A stretch of 64,000 nucleotides of DNA from Squalus acanthias (lineage: Eukaryota). The stretch covers positions 7,254,001 through 7,318,000 of the forward strand of contig CM059432.1 of assembly GCA_030390025.1 (NCBI GenBank), in the 5' to 3' direction. Made by a program: the position numbers and the translations under genes. This document shows, piece after piece, positions 1 through 64,000 of the stretch; position 1 is the stretch's first letter, and each line of letters opens with the position of its first letter. The notes under the pieces are model-generated. The model was not told the DNA's origin, made no database searches, and saw only the letters and a list, made by a program, of their open reading frames with translations.

Positions 1-130
1 TCGGGACCAGCAGACACGATTTAATGAAAATTGCATGGAGGCGGACTTGTGCTCGCCCGCCAGTTTTCGCAATTTTAACCCCCCCACACGCCTCCAAACC
101 CGCCTCCACGGGTCAATGAAAATCCAGCCC
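1..130. mobile_element. Right end of non-autonomous DNA transposon (MITE, TIR GGGCTGGATTTT family)
   Basis: Ends in aaaatccagccc, the same terminal repeat as 2588, 24774 and 59490. Confidence 0.7.
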
Positions 131-1221
131 AAAGACTCAGCATCCACAGCCCTCTTTGTTAGAGAATTCCAAAGATTCACAACCCTCTGAGTGAAGAAAT
201 TTCTTCTCATCTCAGTCCTAAATGGCCGACCCCTTATCCTGAGACTGTGACCCCTGGTTCTAGACTCTCCAGCCAGAGGAAACAGCCCCTGGGAATGGAA
301 TGCATTCCCGAGTGAACTATAGCTGCAGAATCAATAGAAATGTTCAGAATGGAAATAAGGTGAGGGGTTGATATGGGGAAACATGAAGGCCTGGATTTTA
401 AGTCAGGGTGGGGGTCAGTGCGTGTGAGGGGAGGGGCCTGGACGAGAGGGTGGGGCCTGAGTAAGGGGGGGTGGCCTGAGTGAGCGAGAGGGCGGGGCCT
501 GGGCTTGGGGACAGGTGTCCTCGCTGCCTGCAATTTAAAATTACAGTCGGTCAGATCAGGGTGGGGTAAGATCCCCCCCCACTCCATTTGGGGGAGTTAA
601 AATCGAGACGAAGAGTTGCAAAAGCAGGCTCAATGGGCTGAATGGCCTACATCTGTTTTTTTAAAATCATTCCTGGGATGTGGGCGTCGCTGACCAGGCC
701 AGCATTTATTGCTCATCCCTAGTTGCCCTCGAGAAGGTGGTGGTGAGCCGCCTTCTTGAACCGCTGCAGTCCGTGTGGGGAAGGTACTCCCACAGTGCTG
801 TTAGGGAGGGAGTTCCAGGATTTTGACCCAGCGACGATGAAGGAATGGTGATATACTTCCAAGTCAGGATGGTGTGTGACTGGGAGGGGAACTTGGAGGT
901 GGTGGTGTTCCTATACGCCTGCTGCCCTTGTCCTTCTAGGTGGTGGAGGTCGCGGGTTTGGGAAGTGCTGCCGAAGAAGCCTTGGCGAGTTGCTGCAGTG
1001 CATCTTGTAGATGGTACACACTGCTGCCACGGTGCGCCGGTGGTGGAGGGAGTGAATGTTTAAGGTGGTGGATGAGGTGCCAATCAAGCAGGTTGCTTTG
1101 TCCTGGATGGTGTCGAGCCTCTCGAGTCTTGTTGGAGCTGCACTCATCCAGGCAAGTGGAGAGTATTCCGCCACACTCCTGACTCTTGCCTTATAGATGG
1201 CTTTGGGGAGTTAGCAGGTGA
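131..1221. repeat. Left arm of long-range inverted duplication (partner 61391-62446)
   Basis: Composite of a CR1 3' piece, non-LINE spacer and a Crack-like LINE. It is the reverse complement of 61391-62446, including the junctions between unrelated elements. Confidence 0.95.
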
Positions 1222-1224: not shown

Positions 1225-1719
1225 ACACACCTGTTCCTACATCCGATGCTTAAATAGTAGAGTAGAAGAAAGAGATGACAATTTGAATGACTTTTTAAGC
1301 AGATACTTTTTTTCTACTTTAATTTTAAGTGAATCTGGTTAACGTCTAGAGTCTAGTTGTGGACTCATTTAGTAGCTCAAATAGATATCACTCTTCGGAA
1401 AGTTAGTAGGATGTATTGCTGTGAATAATGATAATGCAAGGAGTGACTAGCTAAACCACAAGAACAAGAATTGGAATTATTATGGGAGATGTGACATTAA
1501 AAGCTGATATGAGTACAACCATAAGCACAAAAGAAATCATAGGAGCAAGAATAGATCACTGAGGTGGAACAAATACCAGGCAACACAAATTCGAGTTTGT
1601 TAAGTTAGGAATAAGAAAGGAAATCAGACGGAACTTTTTCACCCAAAGTACAAAGCTCTTGTGGAATAAGTTATCAGGGAAGGCAATTGAAGGGAAAATA
1701 GTTTTGTTTTGGAGAGAAG

Positions 1720-3663: not shown

Positions 3664-3664
3664 T

Positions 3665-4318
3665 CCATGTAACATCGCCCGGCTCCACCCTTGCCTCAGC
3701 TCATCCGCTGCTGAAACTCTCATCCATGCCTTTGTTACCTCTAGACTTGACTATTCCAACGCACTCCTGGCTGGCCTCCCATATGCTACCCTACATAAAC
3801 ATGAGGTCATCCACAACTCGGCTGCCCGTGTCCTAACTCGCACCAAGTCCCGTTCACCCATCTCCCCTGTGCTCGCTGACCTACATTGGCTCCCGGTTAA
3901 GCAACGCCTCGATTTCAAAATTCTCATCCTTGTTTTCAAATCCCTCCATGGCCTCGCCTCTCCCTATCTCTAATCTCCTCCAGCCCCACAGCCCTCTGAG
4001 ATATCTGCGCTCCTCCAATTCTGGCCTCTTGAGCATCCCTGATTATAATCGCTCAACCATTGGCGGCCGTGCCTTCAGCTGCCAAGGCCCTGAGCTCTGG
4101 AACTCCCTGCCTAAACCTCTCCGCCTCTCTACCTCTCTTTCCTCCTTTAAGACGCCCCTTAAAACCTACCTCTTTGACCAAGCTTTTGGTCACCTGCCCT
4201 AATTTCTCCTGATGTGGCTCAGTGTCAAGTTTTTTGTCTTTTAACACTCCCGTGAAGCACCTTGAGACGTTTTACTACGTTAAAGGCGCTATATAAATGC
4301 AAGTTGTTGTTGTTGTTG
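3665..4318 (+). mobile_element. L2 LINE 3' fragment
   Basis: IHAFVTSRLDYSN...LHWLPVKQRLDFKIL...GRAFS...LWNSLP; (TTG)n tail. Confidence 0.9.
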
Positions 4319-5009
4319 TATGTTCTCAGAAGAAGTGAATAACTGTTACTGCTGATTTCAATAAATTTCACTTGTAACGCCATCCATTAGCATATTCTTA
4401 ACCGTTACTCATTGAATCACTGATATCTTCCGAAGAAAATGAAAGAAAAAACAGAATTGGAAGAAATGAAAATAAAAATGTTAAATTCCATTTTCCTCTG
4501 TAAGTAAATCATTTAAGTTGACAAACTGAATTGAATAGCAGCTGAAGTGTTGAAACTTTTTAATGAACTTTCAATATCACGCAGCTGTGAAACACATTAA
4601 ACTAAACTGATACTTAAGGAGTACTGCCTCAGCTAAACGTGCCTAAGTACTGGAATACATCGTAAATGGACAGAACAAAAGTTTAAAGCAGATAGAGCAG
4701 TGACCCGCAAATTCCTGCAACGGTGAAATGGGCGACAAATGCCTTAAATTGGACAGTTGTGTCCCCTCGATTCTCCAGTGGCAAATTTACACCAGATTTT
4801 GCTGGAAAACTGATTTGAATATGGCGTAGGGAGCACAAGTGGTAAATCAGAAGTGACGCGGCTTACGACTTCTCCACCATGTACAGTTTGAAGTCAGGGA
4901 GAATACAGGGTCTCCTTGCTATTAATAAATGTCGCTTATTCAACTTATACTCCCTGTAAATATAAAAATTAACCGATAAATGCAAATTTATATATATATA
5001 GGCTGGTCT

Positions 5010-8504: not shown

Positions 8505-8935
8505 AACGCAACGTAAGCTCGAGGAACAGCACCTCATCTTTCTATTAGGCACTTTACAGCCTTCTGGACTCGACATTGAGTTCAACAATTTCAGACCATA
8601 ACCCCTGCCCCCATTTTTTCAGACGGCAGCTGTTGATTCTGCCATTCCCATTTACACCTCCTCTAGACCCATCTTTTGTTTCTTTACTTGTCCCATTACC
8701 ATCTCCTTTTGCTTTGTACTATCATACCTTTTGCCATTTAATCACTTCTGCTTACCATCCTATCACAGAACTTCCCCCCCTTTCCCTGCCTCTGTACTTG
8801 CTTAAAACCTGTTACATCTCTAACTTTTTCCAGTTCTGATGAAGGGTCATCGACCTGAAACGTTGACTCTGTTTCTCTCTCCACAGATGCTGCCTGACCT
8901 GCTGAGTATTTCCAACATTTTCTGTTTTTATTTCA
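8505..8935 (+). mobile_element. Penelope-like element 3' end (endonuclease C-terminus plus terminal repeat)
   Basis: RKLEEQHLIFLLGTLQPSGLDIEFNNFRP*, followed by an HHR-bearing tail. Confidence 0.85.
8832..8868 (+). ncRNA. Minimal type I hammerhead ribozyme motif
   Basis: agtt-CTGATGA-agggtc atc gacct-GAAA-cgtt-gact. Confidence 0.7.
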
Positions 8936-15869: not shown

Positions 15870-17120
15870 AACAACCCATGACATTCAACGGTATTACCAT
15901 CACCAAATCCCCCACCATCAACATCCTGGGGGTCACCATTGACCAGAAACTTAACTGGACCAGCCACATAAATACTGTGGCTACAAGAGCAGGTCAGAGG
16001 CTAGGTATTCTGCGGTGAGTGTCTCACCTCCTGACTCCCCAAAGCCTTTCCACCATCTACAAGGCACAAGTCAGGAGTGTGATGGAATACTCTCCACTTG
16101 CCTGGATGAGTGCAGCTCCAACAACACTCAAGAAGCTCGACACCATCCAGGACAAAGCAGCCCGCCTGATTGGCACCCCATCCACCACCTTAAACATTCA
16201 CTCCCTCCACCACCGGCGCACCGTGGCTGCAGTGTGTATCATCTACAAGATGCACTGTAGCAACTCGCCAAGGCTTCTTCGACAGCACCTCCCAAACCTG
16301 CGACCTCTTCCTCCTCTTCTCCCCTTCTTAGACGGAACCGAGGATGACTTGCTTCCACATTTAAAATGAGTTCTCAGGTGACTGATGAGTCCAATGCGGG
16401 ACCTACAGTCTCTATCACAGGTGGGGCAGACAGTGGTTGAAGGGGCGGGCGGGTGGGGTGCTTGGGTTGACGTGCGCTCCTTCCGCTGTTTGCACTTGGC
16501 TTCCGCTTGCTCCCGGCGAAGAGACTTGAGGTGATCGGTGCCTTCTCGGATGCTTTTCCTCCACTTTGTGTGGTCTTGGGCCAGGGATTCCCAGGTATCG
16601 GTGGGGATGTTACACTTTTTCAAGGAGGCTTTGAGGGTGTCCTTGAAACGTTTCCTCTGCCCACCTGGGGCTCTCTTGCCGTGTCGGAGCTCCGAGTAGA
16701 GCGCTTGTTTTGGGAGTCTCGTATCGGGCATGCGGACAATGTGACCCGTCCATCGGAGCTGATCGAGCGTGGTCAAAGCTTCGATGCTGGGGATGTTGGC
16801 CTGAGCGGGAACACTGACGTTGGTGCGCCTATCCTGCCAATGGATTTGCAGGGCAGCAGGCGCATGGGAACACCACCACCTCCAAGTTCCCCTCCAAGTC
16901 ACACACCATCCTGACTTAGAAGTATATCGGGCCGATCCTTCATCGTCACTGGGTCAAAATCCTGGAACTCCCTCCCTAACAGCACTGTGGGAGCACCTTC
17001 ACCGCACGGACTGCAGCGGTTCAAGAAGGCGGCTCACCACCACCTTCACAAGGGCAACTAGGGATGGAAAATGAATGCTGGCCTTGCCAGTGACGCCCAC
17101 ATCCCATAAAACTAATAAAA
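15870..17120 (+). mobile_element. Crack-like LINE 3' fragment interrupted by RTE
   Basis: ORFs 15800-16018 and 16019-16369; element resumes at ~16850. Confidence 0.85.
16312..16850 (-). mobile_element. RTE (BovB-group) LINE 3' fragment
   Basis: LRWTGHIVRMPDTRLPKQALYSEL...GGQRKRFKDTLK...CPTCDRDCRSRIGLISHLRTH. Confidence 0.9.
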
Positions 17121-19164: not shown

Positions 19165-19555
19165 ATTTAGGGAAGAGAAGGTTAAGCGGAGATTTAATAG
19201 AGGTGTTCAAAGTTACAAAGCGTTTCAGTAGAGTAAATAAGGAGAGACTGTTTCCAGTGGCAGGAGGGTCGGTAACCAGAGGACACCGATTTAAGATAAT
19301 TGGCAAAAGAACCCGAGGGGAAGATGAGGAGCAATTGTTTTTTAGGCAGCGAGTTGTTATGATCTGGAATGCGCTTCCTGAAACGGTGGTGGAAGCAGAT
19401 TCAATAGTAACTTTCAAAAGGACAATTACTTGAACAGGAAACATTTTCAGAGCTCTGGGGAAAGAGCAGGGGGGAGTGGGACTAATTGGAGAGCTCTTTC
19501 AACGAGCCAGCAGACACGATGGGCCGAATGGCCTCCTTCTGTGCTGTGAGATTCG
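19165..19555 (+). mobile_element. CR1 3' fragment
   Basis: ERLFPVAGGSVTRGHRFKI...QRVVMIWNALP. Confidence 0.82.
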
Positions 19556-20578: not shown

Positions 20579-21413
20579 CCATCTTTTGAATTTTGATTGT
20601 CTTTCTTCCTTTTAAGTGTATCAATGTTTACAAAGCTTGTATCCGTTGGTACAAAACAAGTTGAGGGATGAACTATCAGGCCAGAATTTTGAAGTTTAGA
20701 CCTCCCGGGAGTGGGGGACGGGGTGGCTGGTATAACGGGGGATACCCGGATGTCCGGGTTTCCCCGCACGCTGTCCTCATCTCGCTGCAGCTGCCAGGAA
20801 TCTCGAGGCCCGGAATCCCTGACCAGCCACAGTTAAACCTGCACAGCCTGGTTAAATCAGAGGCTTCCAGCCTCATTATAATATTTAAAGTTATAATATA
20901 TATAACTGCCCGCCCCCCCGTCCCGCCTCCGTTACACCCAGAAGTAGGCGGGTTGAGTCGGGATTCACATTTTGTAACACTTTAACCTCCCACCCGACCC
21001 CAACCCGCCCGTTTTTTGGGGTTAAAATTCCCCCCTCTGTTTCTAATAATATCTGATTGTGGCACTCGAGCGTCTGTTATACACAATGAGTGACTTCCTT
21101 CTTATGATCTTATCAGATGGAGTTACTTACAGGAGTAAGCAAAATTCTGCAGTTTCTTTTTTAAGATGATAGAGTAAATAAGGAGAAAGTGTTTCCACGT
21201 CACAGGACAGCAGGTAGGTGATTGGTTGGTGAGTATTACAGCTCTTTTGCTCACTCAATTAGGTAAGTGGATTAAATTCAGAACTGGGAGAGTATTAACT
21301 ACTATAACTTAATTGAATTAATAACTTAAACTAAATTAACAAATTAAAATTAAAAATAATCGTTTGAATAAAAACTGTAACTAAATATATAAATAAAATA
21401 CGGTTAGATAGAG

Positions 21414-22350
21414 ATGGCAGTGCAGGTGGTGTGTCGTAACTGCAGCATGTGGGAGTTGGTGGAGACCAACGAGATCCCGAGCAACCACATCTGCGGTAAG
21501 TGGCTGCAGCTCGAGGAACTTCGGTTCAGAGTTGTTGAGCTGGAGTCCGAGCTGCAGACATTGCGGGGCATCAGGGAAGGGGAGAGTTACCTGGACACTT
21601 TGTTCTAGGAGGCAGCCATACCCCTTAGGCTAAGTAGTACTTTAGAATTAGTCAATGGTCAGGGACAGCAGGGTGTGACTGCGAGTCAGGCAGGGATGGG
21701 GACCCAGGACATAGTGATGGAGGAGCCTCAGCCCTTGACCTTGTCCAACAGGTATGAGGTGCTTACTATCTGTATGAATGAGAACAAGGACTGCAGGGAG
21801 GATGGGAAAACTGACCATGGCACCATGATGCAGGAGGCCATTCAAGTGGGGGGGGAGTGAAAGGGAATCTATTTGTGGTAGGTGACAGTATAGTCAGGGG
21901 GATAGATACGGTTCTCTGTAGCTACAACAGGGAGTACCGAAGGCAGTGTTGCCTGCCCAGTGCCAGGGTTAAAGACATCTCCTTGTGGCTGGAGAAGAAC
22001 TTGGAGTGGGAAGGGGAAGATCCAGTTGTCGTGGTCCACGTAGGAACCAACGACATAGGTAGAACTAGGAATGAGGTTCTGCTGAGGAAGTTTGAGGAAC
22101 TAGGATCCAAATTAAAAAGCAGAACCTCAAAGGTAATAATCTCTGGATTGTTACCTGAGCCACGCGCCAACTAGCATAGGGATAAGCAGATTAGAAGGTT
22201 AAATGCGTGGCTGAAAGAGTGGTGTGGGAGGCAGGGGTTTCGCTTCATGGGCCACTGGCACCAGTACTGGGGAAAGAGGGAGCTCTTCTGTTGGGACGGG
22301 CTCCAATTAAACTGGGCTGGAATAACTAGGGCAGTAGACAGGGCTTTAAA
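21414..22350 (+). pseudogene. CR1 ORF1 (zinc-finger/leucine zipper plus esterase), disrupted
   Basis: ORF pieces 21414-21608, 21675-21860 and 21857-22174 separated by stops and frameshifts. Confidence 0.85.
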
Positions 22351-22580
22351 CTAATGAAGGGGGGGGTGGGAGGATTCAGGAAAGAATAAATTTAAAAACA
22401 GCAAGGGAAATGTCGAGGCTCGAGAGCAGAGCAGAGTGGGTCAGGAAGGGACAGAGAGAGTAACAAAGGTAATAGAGCATCAGTGACTAAGGTGACATCA
22501 GGGAAAAATAGAAATAAGTCAAAGCTAAAGGCATTATATCTGAATGCATGAAGCATTCGCAACAAAATAGATGAATTAAT

Positions 22581-23066
22581 AGCCCGAAAATTAGACCTAA
22601 TACGCGAGAGTACGCACTGTGTACTCTCGCGTATTAGGTCCCGAATTGCCGGTTTCCTGCATGCACTGCGCATGCGCGGGAAACCGGCACTTCGTGTATT
22701 GCAAAGGGGGCGGTTCCTAAGTGAACCGCGTGCGCGCTACAGGCTGTGCGCACGCAGTGCACTTAGTTTTTTTTTCAGGTTTGAACGCGCAGGTAAGTGG
22801 TGAAGATTTTACACATAAAGAAAGCAGGCGTAGGACCCCCTTTTAACAAGGTAAGTAGTTAATTAAGTGTTATTTTAAATTGTTTTCAACAGGTTTATCT
22901 TTTTTAGAGACTTTAAAGAAAGGTAAGTTTATTTTTATAACTTTTAAAAAGAATTTAAATTTTTTCCAAAATTTAATTTTTTGTTTAAAGTGGTTAATTT
23001 ATTTAACTATAGTTATTTTATTAATCCTTACCCCCGTGGCAACCATCGATGTTTAATTTCTGGGCC
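22581..23066 (+). mobile_element. MITE family A copy 1 (internally deleted), TSD aat
   Basis: TIR agcccgaaaatt/aatttctgggcc; interrupts CR1 ORF2; homologous to 32150 and 57313. Confidence 0.88.
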
Positions 23067-23627
23067 AATAACGCAGATAGAAATTAATAGGTTTGATCTA
23101 GTAGTCATTACGGAGACGTGGTTGCAAAGTGACCAAGGTTGGGAACTAATTATTCCAGGATACTTAACTTTTAGAAGAGATAGGCAAAATGGAAAAGGAG
23201 GAGGGGCAGCCCTGATAATAAAGGATGGGATAAAGACAGTAGAGAGAAAGGATCTTGGCTTAGAAAATCAAGAAGTAGAATCAGTTTGGGTGGAGCTAAG
23301 AAACAGCAAGAGGCAGACAACATTGGTGGGAGTTGTTTATAGGCCCCCAAACAGTAGTTGTAATGTGGGGCAGAGTATAAATCAATCAATTAGAGACGCA
23401 TGTAATAAAGGTAATACAGTAATCGGGGGGACTTTAATCTACATATAGACTGGGCAAACCAAATTTGCAGTAATAATGTGGAGGACGAGTTCATGGAATG
23501 TATACAAGATAGATTTCGAGATCAGTATGTTGAGGAACCAACTAGGGAACAGGCTATTTTAGATCTAGTATTGTGCAATGAGAAAGGGTTAATTAATAAC
23601 CTTGTAGTAAAGGGGCCTTTAGGGAAG

Positions 23628-25830
23628 AACATAAGAACATAAGAAATAGGAGCAGGATTGGCCATTCGGCCCCTCGAGCCTACTCTGCCATTCAATAAGA
23701 TCATGGGCTTATCTGATCTTGGCCTCAACTCCACTTTCCTGCCCGCTCCCCATAACACTTGACTCCCCTGTTTTTCAAAAATCTCTCTATCTCTGCCTTG
23801 AATATATCCAATGACCCAGCCTGCACAGCTCTCTGGGGTAGAGAATTCCAAAGATTCATGACCCTCTGAGAGAAGAAATTCCTCCTCAACTCCGTTTTAA
23901 ATGGGCAACCCCTTATTCTGAATCTATGCCCCCTAGTTCTAGATTCCCCTATGAGGAGAAGCATCCTCTCAGCATCTACCCTGCCAAGCGGGTATGGAGG
24001 CGGGACTGCCGGGAAAATGGCAGAAACTGGGAGTGGCATCTTCTCGGGAGGCGGGTCCCCGAGTCGCGCAGGGACCCGTCTCCTCGAGGCAGGAAGGGGA
24101 TTAGAGCTAATTAACTGCCTGTTAACAGGTAGTTAACAGGCAGTTTTGAGGCTTTTCCCCATTTTACCCCTGCAATTGTGGGCTTCCCGATGGCTGCGAA
24201 CCTCGCCAGGGTCAACGAGGCGAGCAGTGGGTCTGCGGGGGTGAGAGGGGTCGAAATGACAGCTGTAGAGGTGAGTGATGGGTGCAAGTGTGGACAGGTA
24301 AGTATGAGAGGTGAGTGTAAAGTGTTGGAAAAAGTTTACTTACCTTTGTTTCTTCCTGCAGGCTTCAACCTTTGGGGATCCGGAGGTGCCTCATCTCAAC
24401 GGCAGAGATGACAGAATGGCTGCTGCATTCTCAGATGCAGCAGCCATCTGCTTTCTGCTGAGGAGAGCGGTTTGGGTGAGCCTTCGCTGCAAGGGCTCAC
24501 CTTAGAACAGAGATTGTCAGTGTCTGACAGCCTCGCAAAGCTGCCAAACGCTGATAATTCATCTGTCAAAATGTTTTCGACAGATGAAGCGTCATACGCT
24601 GACGTCATCTGTCACCGGCTTTCCCTTGATTGGCCGGTAAACCCGCAGGGCGGACTTAACAAGGTCAATTAAGGGAAAATAGCATGGGTTGGTCAGACGT
24701 CGCTGGGGGCGGGACTAAAATCCGAAAACCAGCAGTCCCGCCCCCAACGCGCCTTCATTGACAAAATCCAGCCCTTTGTGTCCTCCTCACAACTTACATT
24801 TCCACCTATCTTTGTATCATCAGCAAATTTGGCAACAGTACACACGGTACCTTCATCCAATTCATGAATATAGATTGTAAATAGTTGAGGCCCCAGCACT
24901 GACTCCTGTGGCACCCCACTAGTTACAGTTTGCCAACATGAAAATTACCCATTTATCCCAACTCTCTGTTTTCTGTTAGTTAGCCAATCCTCCATCCATG
25001 CTAATATATTACCCCCAAATCCATGAGCTCTTATCTTGTGCAGTAACCTTTTATGTGGCACCTTATTGAATGCTTTCTGGAAATCCAAATACACCACATT
25101 TACTGGTTCCCCTTTATCCACCCTGCTCGTTACATCCTCAAAGAACTCTTGTAAATTTGTCAAACACGATTTCCCTTTCACAAAACCACGTTGACTCTGT
25201 TTGATTGTATTATGATTTTCTAAATGTACTGCTACTATTTCCTTAATAATGGATTCCAGCATTTTTCCAATGACAGATGTTAGGCTAACTATAGTTTCCT
25301 GCTTTCTGTCTCCCTCCTTTCTTGAATAGGGGTGTTACATTTATGGTTTTCCAATCCGCTGGGACCTTTCCAGAATCCAGGGAATCTTGTTAGATTACAA
25401 CCAATGCATCCACTATCTCTGCAACCACTTCTTTTAAGACCCTAGGATGTAGGCCATCAGGTCCAGGGGACTTGTCAGCCTTTAGTCCCATTAGTTTGCC
25501 AAGCACTTTTTCTCTAGTGATAGTGATTGTTTTAAGTTCCTCCCTCCTTTTGCCCCTTGATTATCTACTATTATTGGGATGCTTTTAGTGTCTTCTACCG
25601 TGAAGACAGATACAAAATATTTGTTCAAAGTCTCTGCCATTTCCCTGTTTCCCATTATTAATTCCCATTATTAATTCCCCAGTCTCATCCTCTAAGGTGC
25701 GAACGTTTACTTTAGCTACTCTCTTCCTTTTTATATACCTGTAGAAGCTCTTATTGTCTTTTTTTATATTTCTTGCTAGTTTACTCTCATAATCTATCTT
25801 CTTCCTCTTTATTATTTTTTTAGTCATCCA
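23628..25830 (-). mobile_element. Antisense CR1 inserted into the large CR1, itself interrupted by a MITE
   Basis: 3' end at 23628-23985 and RT at 24775-25830. The host CR1 resumes at cataatatgatagaatttt. Confidence 0.85.
23985..24774. mobile_element. MITE (GGGCTGGATTTT family), left TIR lost
   Basis: Colinear with 58644-59490; right TIR aaaatccagccc. Confidence 0.8.
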
Positions 25831-35163: not shown

Positions 35164-37423
35164 ACATAAGAACATAAGAAATAGAAGCAGGAGGAGGCCT
35201 TTTGGCCCCTCGAGCCTGCTCCGCCATTCAATAAGATCATGGCTGATCTTCTACCTCACCAGTGGTGGAGGGAGTGAATGTTTAAGGTGGTGGATGGGGT
35301 GCCAATCAAGCGGGCTGCTTTGTCCTGGATGGTGTCGAGCTTCTTGAGCGTTTCTTCTTTGTTTCGCCGAGTGATCAGCAAACTGATGGGTCCGATGGCA
35401 ACTCTGGCAAGTGGATGTGAGGAACAGGTAGTAGATTTGCTGAGCTTAAAAATAAATGTGTTGTTTTAAAAAAAATGATTTTGAAAAGGAATAATAGAAA
35501 TAGCAATGGATTCTTCAAATGTGTAGCTGCTCTTAGTTCCCCAACATATTTTATTTTGCAGAAACTCAAAAAATATGAGAAAGTGACACTGAAAACACAG
35601 GCAGACTTTCTGTCCTGTCGGATTTCCTGCCGATGTCGCTCTGAAATCCCAGGCTGCTCCCTCTGAGGTTGGCCACTGGGTGTCATTGACATCATGTCCT
35701 ATTCCATCTATCTGGTGCAATAGAGCTGCTGGAGATGGAGCCAGTTCTAGGGCGGCCTTGATGTGAGCGATACGGAGATTGCAAATCAATGTAGAGCATG
35801 AAAAATGACACTAATAATAGGAAGTAAAGTGGAATCATATCATATCCTAGAATCATAGAAATTTACGGCACAGAAGGAGGCCATTCGGCCCATCGTGTCT
35901 GTGCCGGCCGAAAAAGAGCTATCCGGCCTAATCCCACTTTCCAGCTCTTGGTCCGTAGCCCTGCAGGTTATGGCACTTCAAGTGCATATCCAAGTACTTT
36001 TTAAATACCACCCTTTCAGGCAGTGAGTTCCAGACCCTCCACCACCCTTCTGGGTGAAAAAAGTTCTCCTCAACTCCCCTCTAATCCTTCTACCAATTAT
36101 TTTAAATCTATACCCCTTGGTTATTGACCCTTCTGCTATGGGAAAAAGGTCCTTCCTATCCACGCTATAGAAGGGACCACTTGGGTGACTACATGTTTCC
36201 CAAAAGAATGGAAAAAATGGTCATTTAGAATCTGGTACTGACACTCGAGTTGGAGTGGCTGTGGAGAATATTAATTATTATATTCAGTATTATCTTGCCA
36301 ATGGGGGGAGCAGCACTTGTTTAATCTGGAGAAAGCACTGGTAATTGTGCTAAAGGTGAGTTAAACTACTTTAAGTTTATTGCAAGCAGTTTTATGTATG
36401 ATCAGATCTGAGCACAGGGATTTAAATGTTGTCCATCTTCAAATCTTCCCATCGGAAGTTTAAAGTTTTACTATCATGACTGCAATAATTCAATTCATTC
36501 TTCAGAGTTTGATGCAACAGTGAAGAGTTGATAACAGAAGTGACTGATTAAAAACAATTTAGTTTCTTGGTGAGGTGTACATTATTTTACCAAGACTTGA
36601 TTATTTACATTATCTTAAGAAGAATGCGTTAGAAATGAAACAAGTGGAGAAGGAATGTTCCTTTGTGAAGAGATTACAACAAGGACCACTGGCTTACAGT
36701 GATCAAATAAATCAAATTCTGTTTTTTCATTGCATGGAATTCCGACATTTCCAAGATAGGGAAAAAAAAAACAATGCTTTGCTTATAATATATAAAGCGA
36801 CTGCTATCCTCGTTGTTTTATAGAATCATACTTCACCGAAGGAGGCCATTCAGCCCATCGTGCCTGTGCCGGCTCTTTGAAAGAGCTCTCCAATTAGTCC
36901 CACTCCCCCCTGCTCTTTCCCCAAAGCCCTGTAATTGTTTTCCTTTTCAAGTCTTTATCCAATTCTCTACTGAATCTGCTTCCACCATCTTTTCAGGCAG
37001 TGCATTCCAGATCAGAACAACTTGCTGCGTTGAAAAAAAAATTCTCCTCATCTCCCCCTCTGGTTCTTTTGCCAATTATCTTAAATCTGTGTCCCCTGGT
37101 TGGCCGACCCGCCTGCCACTGGGAACAGTTTCTCCTCATTTACTCTATGGTGACTTTAATATGTCAAATTCTGTTTCTAGGATTGTTACCAGTATCTGTT
37201 TACCAATTGTTTCACTGATCGATAGATCGTTGGACCAGCTAGTGTCCGATTGCATTCCAGTACATATTGAATAGATGTTTCTCCGCAGGGCAGACGTGGG
37301 TGGGAGAGGCTTTCCAGTAATTGCTAATGCAGGGCAAAGCTAAGTCAACCACACGTGTGAGAGGGTGTGAATGAGAATGTTTAATAGGAAAAAGCCATTG
37401 GACCAGCAAGCCTGTTCCCTTTC

Positions 37424-37740
37424 CGTCTTTCGGATGAGACGTTAAACCGAGGCCCTTTCTGTCCTCTCAGGTGGACGTAAAAGATCCAACGGCACTATTT
37501 CAAAGAAGAGCACAGGAGCTCTCTTGGCCAATATTTATCCCTCAATCAACATCACTAAAACAGATTGTCTGCTCATTATCACATTACTGTTTGTGGGAGC
37601 TTGCTGTGCACAAATTGGCTGCCGAGTTTCCTACATTACAACAGTGACTACACTTCAAAAGTACTTCATTGGCTGTAAAGCGCTTTGTGACATCCTGAGG
37701 TTGTGAAAGGCGCCATATAAATGCAAGTCTTTCTTTCTTT
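37424..37740 (+). mobile_element. 5'-truncated Deu-type SINE
   Basis: Similar to the other copies. Confidence 0.8.
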
Positions 37741-38646
37741 CGTTCAGATTACCAGCATCTGCTTTATTTTTGTTGCTTTGTTTAGGCAGTTGTTGGTGTT
37801 TGAATTGTATGGCTTGGTTCCTTCCTTCAGAGTCAGTGGCACAAAATGTTATTTGCAACATTTGTATCAATTTAAGCTGAGGGAAATTTCAAGCCGAAAA
37901 GTCTTGCTCTTTTCCTCAGCCGAGGATTCCCCTCCACCGTGACTGACAGGGTTGACCGTGTCCGCCCCATTCTCACATTTCTGCTCTCGCCCCTTCCCCT
38001 CCCTCCCAGAACCATGATTGGGTTCCCCTCATCCCCACCTTTCACCCCACCAGCCTCCACATTCAACGGATCATCCTCCGCCATTTCTGCCACCTCCAGC
38101 GTGATCCCACCACCAAACAAATCTTCCCCTCCCCTTTCAGCATTCCGAAGGGACCGCTCCCTCCGCGACACCCTGGTCCACTCCTCCATCACCCCCAACA
38201 TCCCTCAACTTCCCATGGCACCTTCCCTTGAAAGTGCAGGAGAAGCAACACATGCCCTTTCACCTCCTCCCTTCCCATTGTCCTGGTCCCCAAACACTCC
38301 TTCCTGTTGAAACAGCGATTTACTTGTACTTCATTCAACTTAGTCTGCTGTATTCGCTGCTCACGATGCGGTCGGCCTCCTCTACATCGAGGAGACCATA
38401 CACAGATTGGGTGTTCGCTTTGTTGAACACCTCCGTTCAGTTCGCAAGCGTGACCCCGAGCTTTCGCTCACTTGTCACTTTAATTCTCCGCTCCACTCCC
38501 ACTCTGACCTCTCTGTCCTCGGCCTCTTACACTGCTCCAATGAAACTCAGTGCAAGCTCAAGGAACAGCATCTCATCTTTCTACTAGGCACTTTCGAGCT
38601 TTCAGGTCTTAACATTGAGTTGAACAACTTTAGACCTTAACCACCG
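37650..38646. repeat. Left arm of inner inverted duplication (partner 42138-~43325)
   Basis: SINE tail, spacer and Penelope fragment; junctions and disabling lesions are shared with the partner. Confidence 0.93.
37905..38646 (+). mobile_element. Penelope-like element GIY-YIG endonuclease region, decayed
   Basis: AFRRDRSLRDTLVHS; FTCTSFNLVCCIRCSRC; RFVEHLRSV...CHFNS...EQHLIFLLGT...GLNIE. Confidence 0.88.
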
Positions 38647-39109
38647 TTGGATAACGTTCTGCCAGACTCCCCCCATCGAACTTGTTATTTGAACATTTGC
38701 CGCAGCGCCTTTGTCCATTTCATTCACAATCCCGCAAAGTTTCCGCTCTTCTAAAGGGCCGATGTCTCTTCCAGGGGGAATATTTCCCCAGCAAGTGGTT
38801 CGGCCATTTCAGGCTTTGAGCCTAGTGGATGTGTCGAGCCTCATGTACAGGAACAGCAGGAGGAGAATTTTGGTTTTAGTCATTTCAATGTATTTATTTT
38901 CTGATAGGTGCGCAAATGAGGAAAACAGGAGTTCTGAGAAATGGGAAGCAGTTTTTCAAATGTTTCGGTGCAAAATGATTGATTAGCTACGTACAATAGG
39001 AAAGATACATATAGAGGAATTGGATATATACTTTAAAAAGGAAACGTTTGCAGGGCTACGGGGAAAGGGCAGGGGACTGGGACTAATTCAGAGATTGGGC
39101 ACAGGCACG

Positions 39110-41074: not shown

Positions 41075-41585
41075 AGGATGTGAAGGCCTCAGAGAGGGTG
41101 CAGAAAAGATTTACAAAAATGGTTCCAGGGATGAGGGACTTCAGTTACGTGGATAGGCTGGAGAAGCTGGGGTTGTTCTCCTTGGAGCAGAGAAGGTTGA
41201 GAGGAGATTTGATAGAGGTGTTCAAAATCATGAGGGGTCTAGACAGAGTAGATAGAGAGAAACTGTTCCCATTGGTGGAAGGGTCGAGAACCAGAGGACA
41301 CAGATTTAAGGTGATTGGCAGAAGAACCAAAGGCGACATGAGGAAAAACTTTTTTACGCAGTGAGTGGTTAGGATCTGGATTGCACTGCCTGAAAGGGTG
41401 GTGGAGGCAGATTCAATCGTGGCTTTCAAAAGGGAGTTGGATAAGTACCTGAAGAAAAAAAATTTGCAGGGCTACGGGGAAAGGGCGGGGGAGTGGGACT
41501 GGCTGAAGTGCTCTTGCAGAGAGCCGGCACGGGCTCAATGGGCCGAATGGCCTCCTCCTGTGCTGTAACCATTCTATGATTCTAT
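41075..41585 (+). mobile_element. CR1 3' fragment
   Basis: ORF 41080-41364; ttctatga tail. Confidence 0.88.
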
Positions 41586-41599: not shown

Positions 41600-43075
41600 C
41601 TGTGATAAAAACAGAGAATGCTGAAAACACTCAGCAGGTCAGGCAGCATCCGTGGAGAGAGAAACAGAGTCAAAGTTTCAGGTCAGTGACGTTTCATCAG
41701 AAGTGGAAGAAGTTAGAGGTGTAACAGATTTTAAGCAAGTACAGGGCAGGGAAAGGGGGGGAGGGGAGGAAAGAACAAAGGGGAAGGTCTGTGATAGGGT
41801 GGAAGGCAGGAGAGATTAAATGACAAAAGGGATGATGGTGCGAGGCAAAAGGAGATGGTAATGGGACAAGTAGAGAAACCAAAGATGGGTCGAGAGGAGG
41901 TGTAAATGGTTACAGTAGAATAGCAGAGGAGGAGCATGGAAAATCTGGCAAAGAGAAGGGTCCCATGGCCCAGGAACAAAAGGTTTCCAAACAACACCCT
42001 TGTGTGCTGCAGACCACCCCGCCAGCTGGGATTCTTACCCTAAGCACTGGCCCACGCTTCCTTCACTCCTTCACTTCTGTAGCTCTGGTGTAGCCTTCCT
42101 CCATCACCCGCACCTGCTGTCTGAGAGAAAATGGAAGCGGTGGTTAAGGTCTAAAGTTGTTCAACTCAATGTGAAGACCTGAAAGCTCGAAAGTGCCGAG
42201 TAGAAAGATGAGATGCTTTTCCTCGAGCTTGCATTGAGTTTCATTAGAGCAGTGTAAGAGGCCGAGGTCAGAGTGGGAGTGGAGCAGAGAATTAAAGTGA
42301 CAAGTGTCGTAAGAATGAGCCTTACGCGTGGTGAACTTAAAGTAAGCTTTAATCAACTAAAAAGGTGCTACATACAAAAGAGGTCTTACTCTATGCCTCT
42401 CCAGGATCCAACTGATCAGTCCAGTATTTATCCTGGACTAATCACAGGAAGTGATGCAATAAAGTTCGAGTCACAGGAAGCTGTATTGTGTTACCACAAC
42501 AAGTGAGCGAAAGCTCGGGGTCACGCTTGTGAACTGAACGGAGGTGTTCAACAAAGCGATCACCCAATCTGTGTATGGTCTCCTCGATGTAGAGGAGACC
42601 GACCGCATCGTGAGCAGCGAATACAGCAGACTAAGTTGAATGAAGTACAAGTAAATCGCTGTTTCAACAGGAAGGAGTGTTTGGGGACCAGGACAATGGG
42701 AAGGGAGGAGGTGAAAGGGCAGGTGTTGCTTCTCCTGCACTTTCAAGGGAAGGTGCCGTGGGAAGTTGAGGCATGTTGGGGTTGATGGAGGAGTGGACCA
42801 GGGTGTTGCGGAGGGAGCGGTCCCTTCGGAATGCTGAAAGGGGAGGGGAAGATGTGTTTGGTGGTGGGATCACGCTGGAGGTGGCGGAAATGGCGGAGGA
42901 TGATCCGTTGAATGTGGAGGCTGGTGGGGTGAAAGGTGGGGACGAGGGGAACCCAATCGTGGTTCTGGGAGGGAGGGGAAGGAGTGAGGGCAGAAGTGTG
43001 AGAATGGGGCGGACACGGTCAACCCTGTCAGTCACGGTGGAGGGGAATCCTCGGCTGAGGAAAAGAGCAAGACTT
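41600..43075 (-). mobile_element. Penelope-like element 3' portion (endonuclease plus tail with degenerate HHR at 41668-41704)
   Basis: Endonuclease motifs as at 37905; tail colinear with 8590-8935; interrupted at ~41920-42110 and by an LTR. Confidence 0.85.
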
Positions 43076-49244: not shown

Positions 49245-49282
49245 AGTTCTGATGAAAGGTCATCGACCTGGAAACGTCAACT
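49245..49282 (+). ncRNA. Minimal hammerhead ribozyme motif 1 (one extra G before GAAA)
   Basis: agtt-CTGATGA-a aggtc atc gacct g-GAAA-cGTC-aact. Confidence 0.7.
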
Positions 49283-49509
49283 CTCTTCTCTCTCCACGGA
49301 ATGCTGCCTGGCCTGCTGAGTTTTTCCAGCGTTTTCTGTTGTTATTTCGGATTTCCAGCATCCGCAGTATTTTGCTATCGTATTAGTGTTTGGTTCACTG
49401 CCACCTCTCTTCTTGGAATGCCTACCTTGAAGAAGTTCTGCTCTTCTCTTCGTACGGGTATTTCCGTTTGGCTCTTCAAACCTTGTTCTATTAGATTTCA
49501 GCTCTTCCC

Positions 49510-49546
49510 AGTTCTGATGAAAGGTCATCGACCTGAAACGTCAACT
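49510..49546 (+). ncRNA. Minimal hammerhead ribozyme motif 2
   Basis: agtt-CTGATGA-a aggtc atc gacct-GAAA-cGTC-aact; stem I agtt/aact, stem II aggtc/gacct. Confidence 0.82.
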
Positions 49547-49701
49547 CTCTCTTCTCTCTCCACGGATGCTGCCTGGCCTGCTGAGTGTTCACTGCCACCT
49601 CTCTTCTTGGAATGCCTACCTTGAAGAAGTTCTGCTCTTCTCTTCGACGGGATTTCCGTTTGGCTCTTCAACCTTGTTCTATTTGATTTCCAGCTCTTCC
49701 C

Positions 49702-49738
49702 AGTTCTGATGAAAGGTCATCGACCTGAAACGTCAACT
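49702..49738 (+). ncRNA. Minimal hammerhead ribozyme motif 3
   Basis: Identical core to motif 2. Confidence 0.82.
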
Positions 49739-60395: not shown

Positions 60396-61390
60396 ATAGA
60401 GTCAGAACGGTACAGAAGGAGGCCATTCGGCCCATCGAGTCAGTGCCAGCTCTCTGTAGAGCAATCCAATCTGTCCCATTCCCCCGCTCTATCACTGTAG
60501 CCCTGCAAGTTTATTTCCCTTAGGTGCCTATCCAGTCTCCCCTTGAAAACATTGAGTGTGTCCGCTTCCACATAAATCACTCCAGATACGTCAAGATTAA
60601 TGGGTTAATTTGCTGGTCTCTCTTTAACATTGTGTTAAAATAGATTTTGTTGTTTAGAGGGGAGAGAGAATAAAATGTTTTGCAAGTCAGAAAGCAGAGA
60701 GGAGTGGAGAACGGTTGTTTTTCAGACTGGAGGGAAGTATACAGTGATGTCCCCCCAGGGGGCGGTATTAGGACCACTGCTCTTTTTGATATATATTAAT
60801 GACCTGGACTTGGGTATACGGGGGGTGGGGGGGGGAGGGGGTGTAATTTCAATGTTTGCAGATGACACAAAGCTTGGAAATGCAGGAAACAGCCAGGTGG
60901 CTAGCAGCAGACTTCAGGAGGACTGGGGAAATAGGCAGACGCGTGGCAGATTTAATTTAACGCAGAGAAGTGTGAAGTGATTCATTTTGGTAGGGAGAAT
61001 GAGGAGAGGCAAAGTAAACTAAGTGGTACAATTTTAAAGGGGGTGCAGGAACAGAACCTGGGGGTGTACGTACACAAGTCTTTGAAGGTGGCAGGACAAG
61101 TTGAGAAGGCTGTTAAAAAAACATACGGGATCCTTGGCTTTATTAATAGAGGCTTGGAGTATAAAAGCAAGGAAGTTCTGCTAAAACTTTATAAAACACT
61201 GGTTAGGCCCCAGCTGGGCACCACATTTTAGGAAAGATGTTAAGGCCCTGGAGAGGGTGCAGAAGAGATTTACTGGAGTGGTTCCAGGGATTGAAGGACT
61301 TGAGTTATGTGGATGGACTGGAGAAGGTGGGATTGTTCTCCTTAGAGCTGAGAAGGTTAAGGAAAGATTTGATAGAGGTGTTCAAAATTA

Positions 61391-62446
61391 TCACCTGCTG
61401 ACTCCCCAAAGCCATCTACAAGGCAAGAGTCAGGAGTGTGATGGAATACTCTCCACTTGCCTGGATGAGTGCAGCTCCAACAACACTCGAGAGGCTCGAC
61501 ACCATCCAGGACAAAGCAGCCCGCTTGATTGGCACCTCATCCACCACCTTAAACATTCACTCCCTCCACCACCGGTGCACCGTGGCTGCAGTGTGTACCA
61601 TCTACAAGATGCACTGCAGCAACTTGCCAAGGCTTCTTCGGCAGCACCTCCCAAACCCGCGACCTCTTCCACCTAGAAGGGCAAGGGAACACCACCACCT
61701 CCAAGTCCCCCTCCCAGTCACACACCATCCTGACTTGGAAGTATATCACCGATCCTTCATCGTCGCTGGGTCAAAATCCTGGAACTCCCTCCCTAACAGC
61801 ACTGTGGGAGCACCTTCACCACACGGACTGCAGTGGTTCAAGAAGGCGGCTCACCACCACCTTCTCGAGGGCAATTAGGGATGGGCAATACATGCTGGCC
61901 TTGCCAGCGACGCCCACATCCCAGGATTGATTAAAAAAAAACAGATGTAGGCCATTCAGCCCATTGAGCCTGCTTTTGCAACTCTTCATCTCGATTTTAA
62001 CTCCCCCAAATGGAGTGGGGGGGATCTTACCCCACCCTGATCTGACCGACTGCAATTTTAAATTGCAGGCAGCGAGGACACCTGTCCCCAAGCCCAGGCC
62101 CCGCCCTCTCGCTCACTCAGGCCCCGCCCTCTCGCCCAGGCCCCTCCCCTCGCATGCACTGACCCCCACTCTGACTTAAAATCCAGGCCTTCATGTTTCC
62201 CCATATCAACCCCTCACCTTATTTCCTTTCTGAACATTTCTATTGATTCTGCAGCTATAGTTGACTCGGGAATGCATTCCATTCCCAGGGGCTGTTTCCT
62301 CTGGCTGGAGGGTCTAGAACCAGGGGTCACAGTCTCAGGATAAGGGGTCGGCCATTTAGGACTGAGATGAGAAGAAATTTCATCGCTCAGAGGGTTGTGA
62401 ATCTTTGGAATTCTCTAACAAAGAGGGCTGTGGATGCTGAATCGTT
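61391..62446. repeat. Right arm of long-range inverted duplication (partner 131-1221)
   Basis: Reverse complement of 131-1221 with a few small indels. Confidence 0.95.
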
Positions 62447-62460
62447 GAGTATATTCAAGG

Positions 62461-62605
62461 AACATCAGCGAGAAGTCGCACAACACCAGGTTATAGTCCA
62501 ACAGTTTTATTTGAAATCACAAGCTTTCGGAGCGCCGCTCCTTCGTCAGGTGAAGTAAAGGAATACAAATCGACAAAGCATATCTAGATAGAGAACGATG
62601 CATGT
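62461..62605 (-). mobile_element. Penelope-like terminal repeat fragment
   Basis: About 90 bp inverted match to 63719-63805. Confidence 0.8.
62517..62553 (-). ncRNA. Minimal hammerhead ribozyme motif (second family)
   Basis: Minus strand: tcac-CTGACGA-a ggagc ggc gctcc-GAAA-gctt-gtga. Confidence 0.78.
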
Positions 62606-62629
62606 GAAGCGTACAAATGGCAGACGACT

Positions 62630-63060
62630 ACCCCTGTGCACGCTGACCTACGTTGACTCCCGGTCCAGCAACATGTTCAATTTAAAATTCTCATCCTGGT
62701 TTACAAAGCCCTCCCTATCTCTGTAACCTCCGCCAGCCCTACAACCCTTTGAGACCTCTGCGCACCTCCAATTCTGACCTCTTGAGCATCCCCAATTTTC
62801 AGTCGTTGCACCACTGGCGGCCGTGCCTTCAGCGACCTGGGCCCTGAGCTCTGGAATTCCCTCCCTAAACCTCTCCGCCTCTCTCTCCTTTTTTTAAGAC
62901 GCTCCTTAAAACCTACCTCTTTGACTAAGCTTTTGGTCATCTGTCCTGATATCTCCTTATGTGGACCATTGCCAAATTCGGTTTGATAATCGCTCCTGTG
63001 CGGCGCCTCGGGACGTTTTACTACATTAAAGGCGCTATATAAATGCAAGTTGTTGTTGTT
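62630..63060 (+). mobile_element. L2 3' fragment
   Basis: Similar to the other L2 ends; (TTG)n tail. Confidence 0.82.
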
Positions 63061-63574
63061 TCTCCAGCCAAGGCCCTTTCCAGTTCACCGTTCTCTTTGG
63101 ATGAATTAGCACTACAATTGCTAGGACTGTTCAAAGTGCAACATATTTCTAAGTTTTTGAAAGATGTGCTGCCAAGCCCAGCAAGCCTCATGAAAGCTCT
63201 GATTCCAATGTAAATGAGTCCCCATCCTCGATTTAACAGCTTTTGGGCTGCCCCTTTACTCATGGTTCAGCCTGCCCGTATGAAACAAGCTCAATACGGT
63301 CGAGATGGTCTGGCCAGTTTTGAAGTTGGCTTTTTAAAGGTATGTAGCACATTTAAGTTGGTTGAGAATTCAGCCATTGTTTTTTTAATTTATTGCTTTC
63401 TCTGCCTTTTCATTAGTGGCTTGTGTTTTCTTGCAGCTTTGGCCTGAATGTACATTGCAAGATTCTCCTACAGCAGCCTTGCTTTCTGCTGCTCTTTCCC
63501 TTGTAGCGAGCTTTGTGGTCAGGAAGGGAATTCGTTTGGGGATTCCAATGGTGCTCCTAGTTATGTTTTCCTGA

Positions 63575-63846
63575 CTGACCTGTTTGGACACCATCCACAC
63601 CTTTGATTGCCGTGATTATCTCTCTGCCGAGGTGTGATAAAGGGCAGTTAGAAAGATTAACTGCAATCATCTGGCAGTGTTCTCTGACTATATATGCTGT
63701 GCCTATATGCATCTCTTCACTTCACCTGACGAAGGAGCAGCGCTCCGAAAGCTTGTGATTTCAAATAAAGCTGTCGGACTATAACCTGGTGTTGTGCGAC
63801 TTCTCACATTTGTCCACCCCAGTCCAACACCGGCATCTCCGCATCA
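63575..63846 (+). mobile_element. Penelope-like terminal repeat (pLTR)
   Basis: HHR followed by AATAAA and the end ...ccagtccaacaccggcatctccgcatca. Confidence 0.8.
63722..63758 (+). ncRNA. Minimal hammerhead ribozyme motif (second family)
   Basis: tcac-CTGACGA-a ggagc agc gctcc-GAAA-gctt-gtga; stem I tcac/gtga, stem II ggagc/gctcc. Confidence 0.8.
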
Positions 63847-64000
63847 AAATTATGAGGGTCTTTGATAGCGTAAATAAGGAGAGGCTGTTTCCACTGGCAG
63901 GAAGGTCAGTAACCAAAGGACACAGATTGAAGATAATTGGCAAAACACCCAGGGAGGAGATGAGGAGAATCTTTTTACGCAGCGAGCTGTTGTGATCTGG

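What the first reader, a model, noticed from the sequence alone, without database searches (positions are those of the whole stretch)
61382..63853. TSD-bounded 2.45-kb insertion ending in a Penelope HHR repeat carries an inverted copy of DNA from 60 kb away
Seen: a CR1 reading frame breaks at 61391 and resumes at 63844, with tcaaaattat at both 61382-61391 and 63844-63853. Inside lie 61391-62446 (reverse complement of 131-1221, sharing junctions between unrelated repeats), an antisense Penelope terminal repeat, L2 plus unassigned DNA, and a sense terminal repeat abutting the right TSD. The left copy keeps its own inner flank (near-TSD acatctgtt/acacctgtt around its LINE), so it is the donor, and this is an insertion rather than an inversion breakpoint. 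Inference: Penelope-primed reverse transcription jumped to a local template, such as a nascent minus-strand transcript across the region, or transduced flanking DNA. That would make Penelope elements a route to local segmental duplication.
Basis: partly seen in the sequence, partly recalled or inferred. Interest (0 to 1): 0.72.

Follow-up and report, generated by a model that had tools for sequence, protein, structure and literature searches.

The report
Penelope insertion that copied nearby DNA
A short piece of a Penelope-like jumping gene landed inside an old repeat in this shark-type genome and brought with it about 2.2 kb of ordinary chromosomal DNA, half of which has an inverted twin 60 kb away; this kind of capture is already known, but this case is unusually long and distant.

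Summary
The structure is real. A CR1-type repeat is split by a 2,452-bp insert with an exact 10-nt duplication (8 of 10 spanning CR1 copies give that register). The insert's left 1.06 kb is an inverted paralog of 131-1221 (4.1% substitutions, 3 indels), and the left copy keeps the original LINE site. Public contigs show the non-repeat parts are low-copy, which refutes a dispersed family. They also show that the sense Penelope piece is 285 nt (63562-63846), ends exactly at the family's 3' end, and that a Penelope-free continuation of the captured DNA exists in relatives. Best reading (0.6): one Penelope target-primed insertion whose 5' side was completed by copying about 2.17 kb of local sequence. 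DNA versus RNA template is open. 'The left copy is the donor' is not secure: two runs show only a 99+% identical form of 63061-63561, not the 96-97% mirror that model predicts, so an unseen sister copy or later conversion is possible. Host-DNA capture by Penelope termini (rotifer) and local templated insertions by L1 are published; the size, distance and vertebrate setting are the new part.

The parts
60688..61391 (+). Target CR1-type LINE, 5' (left) half
   Evidence: 78-86% identity to other window copies; Pfam RVT_1 E=2e-5, below the curated cut-off, in 60639-60977; the CR1 label is recalled
61382..61391 (+). Left target-site duplication (10 nt, AT-rich)
61392..61940 (+). Captured 5'-truncated LINE 3' fragment, starting 4-5 nt inside the 5' end of the same LINE copy at 657-1226
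   Evidence: shared 8-nt deletion and 13 shared derived sites with the left copy; clade not identified
61941..62286 (.). Captured low-copy DNA A (CR1-tail remnant, a moderately repeated stretch and low-copy DNA)
   Evidence: only other full-length match in the window is 287-647; summed depth 8-35 in bin 62138-62254 and 438-4,532 in bin 62021-62137, vs 1e4-1e7 in repeat bins
62287..62460 (+). Captured CR1 fragment of another subfamily, cut off at 62460
   Evidence: in the left copy it is interrupted by a MITE-like element at position 130
62470..62630 (-). Antisense Penelope-type end without the tail (HHR core 62525-62549), preceded by about 9 nt (62461-62469) of unassigned filler
   Evidence: depth at 62615 in the two organism A runs only (table 4); the inner boundary 62630 is set by where the L2 match starts
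62631..63060 (+). Old L2-type 3' fragment with a (GTT)n tail
63061..63561 (.). Captured low-copy DNA B
   Evidence: no other match in the window; single contigs in X1 (1 substitution and 1 gap in 511) and X5 (2 substitutions and 3 gaps in 513), about 4.4% diverged in organism B; contigs leave or stop at 63561
63562..63846 (+). Sense 5'-truncated Penelope-type 3' end (285 nt) with a minimal type I hammerhead motif (core 63726-63750) and a 41-nt tail (63806-63846)
   Evidence: high-copy from about 63562 and family end at 63846; fold with helix I, helix II and core; tail
63844..63853 (+). Right target-site duplication; its first 3 nt are shared with the Penelope 3' end
63844..64000 (+). Target CR1-type LINE, 3' (right) half
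131..1221 (-). Inverted paralog of 61391-62447 (donor or sister of the donor)
649..657 (.). 3'-side near-TSD of the LINE in the left copy (also present in the right copy)
1227..1235 (.). 5'-side near-TSD of the LINE, present only in the left copy
1..130 (.). End of a MITE-like element inserted in the left copy's CR1 fragment; it hides whether the mirror continues
   Evidence: 87% match to the terminus of the element at 1720-2590

Best explanation
One Penelope-like target-primed insertion with capture of local host sequence. (1) The GIY-YIG endonuclease made staggered cuts about 7-10 nt apart at an AT-rich spot in an old CR1 (the TSD is shown; the enzyme is inferred). (2) The lower-strand end primed reverse transcription at the tail of a Penelope RNA, helped by a 3-nt match, and gave 285 nt of cDNA (end geometry shown; priming inferred). 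(3) The 5' side was not joined directly. It was completed by copying about 2.17 kb of a nearby locus (LINE - low-copy A - CR1 fragment - older antisense Penelope end - L2 - low-copy B), either by the cDNA end jumping to that template or by the opposite target end invading it (inferred). I lean to a DNA template, as in synthesis-dependent strand annealing (about 55%), over a nascent RNA (about 45%). The template belongs to the lineage of 131-1221: the left locus itself (about 50%, needing later conversion or assembly collapse to fit the contigs), an unseen near-identical sister copy close by (about 35%), or something else (about 15%). These splits are judgement. The event postdates the split of organisms A and B. 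No function is implied; it is a neutral fossil.
For: Exact TSD in a collinear CR1 (8 of 10 spanning copies). The Penelope family 3' end falls at 63846, overlapping the TSD by 3 nt. By my estimate a later unrelated insertion would hit that spot in that orientation with odds near 1e-4 (2 copies of this family in 64 kb). Captured parts are low-copy (table 2). Their internal junctions are bridged by at least 31 letters on each side: LINE/A in X1 record 5 and X9 record 31, A/CR1 in X5 record 14 and X9 record 32. A Penelope-free continuation of low-copy B exists: organism B runs on for 165 unmatched letters beyond 63561, X1 for 32, and X5 stops exactly at 63561 as at a branch (table 8). The left copy holds the original LINE site. 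The sense piece carries the organism A variant at 63660 (C in 0 of 820,428 depth in X1, against 914,999 of 915,768 in X6). Precedent: PAc cuts AT-rich DNA, extends both strands and starts at the tail ends (PMC11167929); Penelope termini capture host DNA with TSDs (PMC3846280); L1 makes templated insertions from nearby DNA (PMC11702581; 10.1101/2024.08.27.596794).
Against: The mirror of 62447-63561 was never seen; no genome is held. If it existed at the left-right divergence, two unbroken near-identical contigs of low-copy B are unlikely: simulated 0.044 x 0.15 at 4.1% divergence and 0.116 x 0.41 at 2.6% (assuming random bubble collapse, which is recalled and not tested). Left vs right differ at 9 of 346 sites in low-copy A, X1 vs the window at 1 of 511 in low-copy B (Fisher p=0.002), so the two captured parts seem to have different ages. 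No listed contig bridges the outer junctions in the window's form. Junction homology at 61391 is 1 nt, plus an offset 6-mer that 4-8% of positions would show by chance. The copy ending 4-5 nt from the LINE's own 5' end is unexplained. Published L1 templated insertions are typically under 250 bp and within 15 bp of the site, far smaller and closer than this.
Confidence: 0.6

Rival explanations
1. Two-step 5' transduction: a truncated Penelope first inserted at the source after low-copy B, and a host transcript across it was later picked up by Penelope RT at that terminal repeat and reverse-transcribed for 2.45 kb without any jump.
For: Needs no template switch. pLTRs act as sufficient cis signals for mobilising host DNA in rotifers (PMC3846280). 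X5 stopping at 63561 fits a source that is polymorphic for the Penelope piece.
Against: X1 leaves the window's sequence at 63561 on a 99.8% identical contig, and organism B continues natively, so a Penelope-free source form exists. No host gene was found to supply a transcript.
Confidence: 0.15
2. Multi-template fold-back event: the two outward-facing Penelope ends (one tail-less, one tailed) were primed in the same event at two sites. L2 plus low-copy B was trapped between them, and the LINE-A-CR1 block came from the left locus as the DNA that primed the antisense end.
For: Inverted pLTRs with a tail at one end only are the standard PLE form (PMC8557442). The cores are 84 of 87 identical, and both pieces look organism A-specific. 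The two captured parts appear to differ in age. An earlier unchecked AI note reports local DNA trapped between Penelope arms in another shark genome.
Against: The two pieces differ upstream of the core, so two RNAs are needed. The TSD lies 1.07 kb outside the antisense end. It needs at least three junctions in one event.
Confidence: 0.12
3. Two unrelated events: an ordinary truncated Penelope insertion with a TSD, and a separate repair-type (template-switch) inverted duplication that landed at its 5' junction; or a longer original insert shortened by a later deletion at 63561.
For: A second local inverted duplication in the window (37423-38650 vs 43563-42137, 5.7% substitutions over the 1,053 bases aligned) has no TSD of 6 nt or more and no Penelope end, so such duplications arise here without this signature. 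A longer allele would explain X1 and X5.
Against: The second event must land within a nucleotide of the left TSD. A longer allele does not explain why low-copy B shows no paralog.
Confidence: 0.09
4. Not a local event: the composite is a dispersed non-autonomous family, or the structure is an assembly artefact.
For: No read or contig was shown spanning the whole insert.
Against: Depth over the low-copy bins is 0-70 against 1e4-1e7 in repeat bins. The copies differ by 4.1% and 3 indels, too much for a duplicated haplotig. An exact TSD in CR1 register is not what misassembly makes.
Confidence: 0.04

Closest known systems
Host DNA mobilised by Penelope pLTRs in the rotifer Adineta vaga (Pen3a-NRPS, Pen1 spacers; Arkhipova et al. 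2013, PMC3846280; passages and Discussion read)
   Same: Non-Penelope DNA inside one TSD-flanked insertion with Penelope termini, no ORF needed. The paper also notes non-coding sequences captured between solo pLTRs with TSDs.
   Different: There the cargo lies between pLTRs; here 1.07 kb of cargo lies outside the inner pLTR pair and only the 3' boundary is a Penelope end. A paralog is visible 60 kb away, inverted. The host is a vertebrate.
L1 templated insertions (10.1101/2024.08.27.596794, passages; PMC11702581, passages and section 7; supplementary figures not seen)
   Same: Retro-insertion whose 5' side carries sequence copied from genomic DNA near the site, duplicating it. SDSA-like invasion or end processing is proposed.
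   Different: Different enzyme class (GIY-YIG/telomerase-like RT, no poly(A)). Here the template is about 2.2 kb and at least 60 kb away, against typically under 250 bp and within 15 bp. Germline, not tumour or cell culture.
PAc, Poseidon-type PLE of Anolis (Frangieh et al. 2024, PMC11167929; parts 1-2 of 4 read)
   Same: AT-rich target with ATT, HHR in the terminal repeat, two RT start sites giving tailed and tail-less ends, as in the two pieces here.
   Different: No host-template capture was shown in the parts read.
Non-LTR retrozymes (10.64898/2026.07.22.740005, part 1 of 5 read)
   Same: Non-coding, type I HHR-bearing, Penelope-derived.
   Different: Retrozymes are tandem head-to-tail HHR repeats forming families; this is a low-copy composite with two inverted HHR pieces.

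Membership tests
Penelope-like element 3' end (pLTR) | Minimal type I hammerhead: core, unpaired base before helix II, short helix I, palindromic remnant of helix III | tested here: met
   Both pieces fold with helix I and helix II around the core in the shorter windows, matching the description in PMC4209133. Folding z-scores are not significant, and Rfam gave no HHR hit.
Penelope-like element 3' end (pLTR) | Optional 30-40 nt tail at one end only | tested here: met
   41-nt extension on the sense piece, absent from the antisense piece
Penelope-like element 3' end (pLTR) | Linked in full-length copies to an RT + GIY-YIG ORF | tested here: inconclusive
   No ORF of this family in the window; collection scans found nothing. 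Earlier unchecked AI notes on this genome link an HHR-bearing repeat to a Penelope-like element, and I did not check that it is this family.
Penelope-like element 3' end (pLTR) | High-copy family with a fixed 3' end | tested here: met
   Depth 1e5-1e6 over 63542-63892; records ending at 63846 (X1 record 8 and an X9 joint)
Penelope-mediated capture of host DNA (rotifer type) | Whole unit flanked by one TSD that is single in the empty site | tested here: met
   Met against paralogous CR1 copies (8 of 10); the orthologous empty allele was not seen
Penelope-mediated capture of host DNA (rotifer type) | Cargo enclosed between pLTRs | tested here: not met
   Only 62631-63561 lies between the two pieces; 61392-62460 lies outside
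Templated insertion during TPRT (L1 type) | Cargo is a copy of a nearby locus that keeps its own flanks | tested here: inconclusive
   Met for 61391-62447; source of 62447-63561 not located
Templated insertion during TPRT (L1 type) | Microhomology at the capture junctions | tested here: inconclusive
   1 nt at 61391 plus an offset 6-mer at chance level; the native continuation at 63561 was not shown
RNA-templated retrocopy / 5' transduction | A transcript of the right strand across the source, or intron loss | not testable with these tools
   No stranded RNA run was laid; no host exon found
Dispersed non-autonomous family or retrozyme | Many genomic copies of the whole unit, or tandem HHR units | tested here: not met
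   Low-copy bins have depth 0-70 against 1e4-1e7 in repeat bins; HHR pieces are inverted, not tandem

The most novel reading that the evidence does not exclude
In sharks, where Penelope-like ends are very abundant, Penelope insertion regularly finishes by copying kilobases of DNA from tens of kilobases away. It would then be a recurrent, recognisable source of local inverted segmental duplications, each marked by a TSD and one tailed terminal repeat, and it would show that PLE RT or its cut ends switch onto host templates in vivo.
Probability: 0.3. Interest if true: 0.7.

Novelty: new variant of a known kind. Interest (0 to 1): 0.42.

Why it matters
How Penelope-like elements finish an insertion is still undefined (PMC8557442; PMC11167929). 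A TSD-bounded insert with an intact Penelope 3' end and a traceable local paralog gives a simple search signature. A genome-wide count would tell whether capture is from DNA or RNA, how far it reaches, and how much of the local duplication in shark genomes it explains. As one non-coding fossil it changes little: capture by Penelope termini and templated insertion by L1 are both published. Searches listed no paper on kilobase-scale local capture by a vertebrate Penelope; the library lacks most subscription papers.

Tried and rejected
No genome is held for this window, so the DNA upstream of position 1 could not be read. Scans of metagenome contigs for a low-copy B motif and for the HHR core, and of viral contigs for the core, found 0 loci. 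Rfam gave 0 hits at gathering thresholds for the window and 1 chance-level hit (E=1.4) in 62400-63900. Host gene: Pfam on 21 chosen frames and on 150 frames (149 of the 167 listed plus one further frame from that list's end) showed RT, endonuclease and esterase hits of LINEs and a few weak sub-cut-off hits. A WD40_alt hit at 21408-21605 is, on reading the DNA, the start of a CR1-type ORF1 upstream of the GDSL hit, not a host exon (ORF1 layout recalled). No RNA holder listed. Contig depth as copy number was considered and dropped: one- and two-copy models both fit within noise, and the tool warns against it. Organism B has no cover at 62227 and organism D little over low-copy B; these holes were not used as evidence. 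The X6 joint 61271-63873 (depth 892) is a generic CR1 family contig, not an empty orthologous site. A simple inversion was rejected because both CR1 halves are collinear and the left copy keeps its inner flank. 3' transduction by the captured LINE was rejected because both copies are truncated at the same point and only the left has the LINE's 5' near-TSD. CR1 subfamily match of the halves is broadly consistent (83.7/84.6% to the copy at 19167-19358, 83.4/81.7% to 51560-51362) but not clean (84.7/74.3% to 41083-41365). Left-derived vs right-derived LINE changes (19 vs 7 after dropping 1 gap-edge column and 2 ambiguous ones, p=0.03) were not interpreted; by my reading against family copies the CR1 part leans the other way. 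Look-ups of earlier findings by place and by sequence returned nothing. PMC13174262, PMC6278893 and PMC12910113 were seen as search listings only.
Full report
1. Observation. The 10-mer TCAAAATTAT lies at 61382-61391 and 63844-63853. The DNA on either side is one CR1-type element: of 10 window copies that span this site, 8 align the two halves with exactly a 10-nt overlap, one is off by 1 nt and one by 14 nt (alignment). The duplication is therefore a true target-site duplication around a 2,452-bp insert. The CR1 and L2 labels are recalled; the only family hit is a sub-cut-off RT match in the left half.

The insert's first 1.06 kb is an inverted paralog of 131-1221: 43 substitutions in 1,059 bases and 3 indels. 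The copies share an 8-nt deletion and 13 derived sites in the LINE part, and the junctions between unrelated repeats. Only the left copy has the LINE's 5' near-TSD (8 of 9; 101 of 20,000 random pairs), and its flanks rejoin a CR1-tail remnant. Left-type sequence is thus ancestral. A MITE-like element at 1-130 interrupts the left copy 13 nt before the point where the right copy meets the antisense Penelope end, so the window cannot show whether the mirror continues. No genome was held.

2. Independent data. Contigs of 4 of the 22 listed runs were laid on 60500-64000 at 89% likeness: X1 and X5 (organism A, taken as the window's species or a very close one because record 1 has 0 differences in 169 letters), X6 (organism B) and X9 (organism D). 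(a) Depth is 8-35 in bin 62138-62254 and 0-70 in the bins from 63074 to 63541, against 1e4-1e7 in repeat bins. The composite is not a dispersed family. (b) The LINE/low-copy and low-copy/CR1 junctions are bridged in organisms A and D, so the cargo is old resident DNA. (c) 63562-63846 is one high-copy piece whose family ends at 63846, three bases into the TSD. (d) Contigs of low-copy B leave the window's sequence at 63561: X1 runs on for 32 unmatched letters, X5 stops there, and organism B runs on for 165 letters. The last figure reads minus-strand record positions as stored; that reading gives the expected 30-letter overlap between X6 records 23 and 24. A Penelope-free form of this DNA therefore exists. 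(e) The sense piece has the organism A variant at 63660 and 63805, and the inner part of the antisense piece has depth only in organism A, so both likely postdate the A/B split (about 4.4% divergence, 23 differences in 526 letters). The tables were cut, and no listed record bridges the outer junctions in the window's form.

3. The result against the simple reading. If the left locus mirrored the whole insert, low-copy B should have a paralog 2.6-4.1% diverged. X1 and X5 each gave one unbroken contig with 2 and 5 differences in about 510 letters. Logan contigs are simplified and lossy (10.1101/2024.07.30.605881, passages). Under random collapse of variants (an assumption from recall) the joint chance is 0.007-0.047. 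The direct template may therefore be an unseen near-identical sister of the left copy, or the two copies were later homogenised over this part, or the window's allele is a shortened form. Locality survives in each case, because a remote template would not by chance deliver its copy 60 kb from a paralog.

4. Mechanism. The right end has the marks of Penelope target-primed reverse transcription: an AT-rich target, a minimal hammerhead (PMC4209133, parts 1-2 of 4), a 41-nt tail absent from the antisense piece and a 3-nt overlap with the TSD. PAc cuts AT-rich DNA, extends both strands and starts at the two tail ends (PMC11167929, parts 1-2 of 4). I infer one event: 285 nt of cDNA, then completion of the 5' side by copying about 2.17 kb of a local locus (0.6). 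Whether the cDNA jumped or the opposite target end invaded, and whether the template was DNA or nascent RNA, cannot be told; no host gene was found to fix a transcript strand. Rivals are read-through of a resident terminal repeat (0.15), a multi-template fold-back event (0.12), two separate events or a later deletion (0.09), and a family or artefact (0.04). The link of this repeat family to a Penelope ORF rests on motif and tail and on earlier unchecked notes, not on a direct test. It remains unexplained that the copy ends 4-5 nt inside the LINE's own 5' end.

5. Base rate. The same window holds a second junction-sharing inverted duplication, 37423-38650 vs 43563-42137, with 60 substitutions in the 1,053 bases aligned. 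It includes part of a GIY-YIG-like ORF (Atlas score 0.95, family on 41-44% of members; no Pfam hit) but has no TSD of 6 nt or more and no Penelope end. Local inverted copies arise here by more than one route.

6. Comparison and novelty. Arkhipova et al. 2013 describe a host gene and non-coding sequences carried between Penelope termini with TSDs (PMC3846280, passages and Discussion; summarised in PMC6431247, passages). Inverted termini with one tail are standard (PMC8557442, passages). L1 makes templated insertions from nearby DNA (PMC11702581, passages and section 7; 10.1101/2024.08.27.596794, passages), typically under 250 bp and within 15 bp. Their supplementary figures, which I did not see, may hold longer cases. 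This case works like those, but it is not a member of the rotifer pattern in the strict sense, because half the cargo lies outside the two termini. Its length, distance and vertebrate setting were not found in the searches. An earlier unchecked note reports a 236-bp local capture in another shark genome, a lead that the habit recurs.

7. Verdict. Observation confirmed, interpretation partly supported. New variant of a known kind, interest 0.42. If a genome-wide scan showed this to be a regular outcome of Penelope insertion (probability 0.3), interest would be about 0.7.

Noticed in passing
window 37423-38650 (+) and 43563-42137 (-): A second local inverted duplication of about 1.2 kb (5.7% substitutions overall; 40 of 318 in the SINE-like part, 20 of 735 in the rest) sharing SINE / low-copy / GIY-YIG-like ORF junctions. 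The right copy has the whole SINE head and continues toward an HHR-bearing end at about 41600-41900, so it looks like the donor. No TSD and no Penelope end on the left copy.
   Followed up: partly
window 42306-42498: A TG...CA-bounded, solo-LTR-like insert with a short flanking duplication sits in the right copy of the second duplication only.
   Followed up: no
window 33994 (minus-strand CR1 copy 34711-33994): Another CR1 copy carries the same 10-mer and is broken 2-3 nt past it by unrelated sequence, so this AT-rich spot in CR1 may be a recurrent target.
   Followed up: no
window 8836-8860, 41676-41700, 49249-49274, 49514-49538, 49706-49730: A second hammerhead-core family, with three copies spaced 265 and 192 nt apart at 49249-49730, possibly a partial tandem of Penelope ends or a retrozyme-like array.
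   Followed up: no
window 61391-61940 vs 657-1221: In the shared LINE, the left copy has 19-20 derived changes and the right 7 against the family (p about 0.03); cause unknown.
   Followed up: partly
window 21408-23639 (+): Decayed long CR1-type element with ORF1-like start, GDSL esterase and endonuclease hits, all below Pfam cut-offs; its ORF1 gives a misleading WD40_alt hit.
   Followed up: yes
window 16333-16764 and 56741-56320: Two 93% identical copies of an RTE-like LINE 3' end (label recalled), the first inserted into a copy of the same LINE family that the finding's cargo carries.
   Followed up: no
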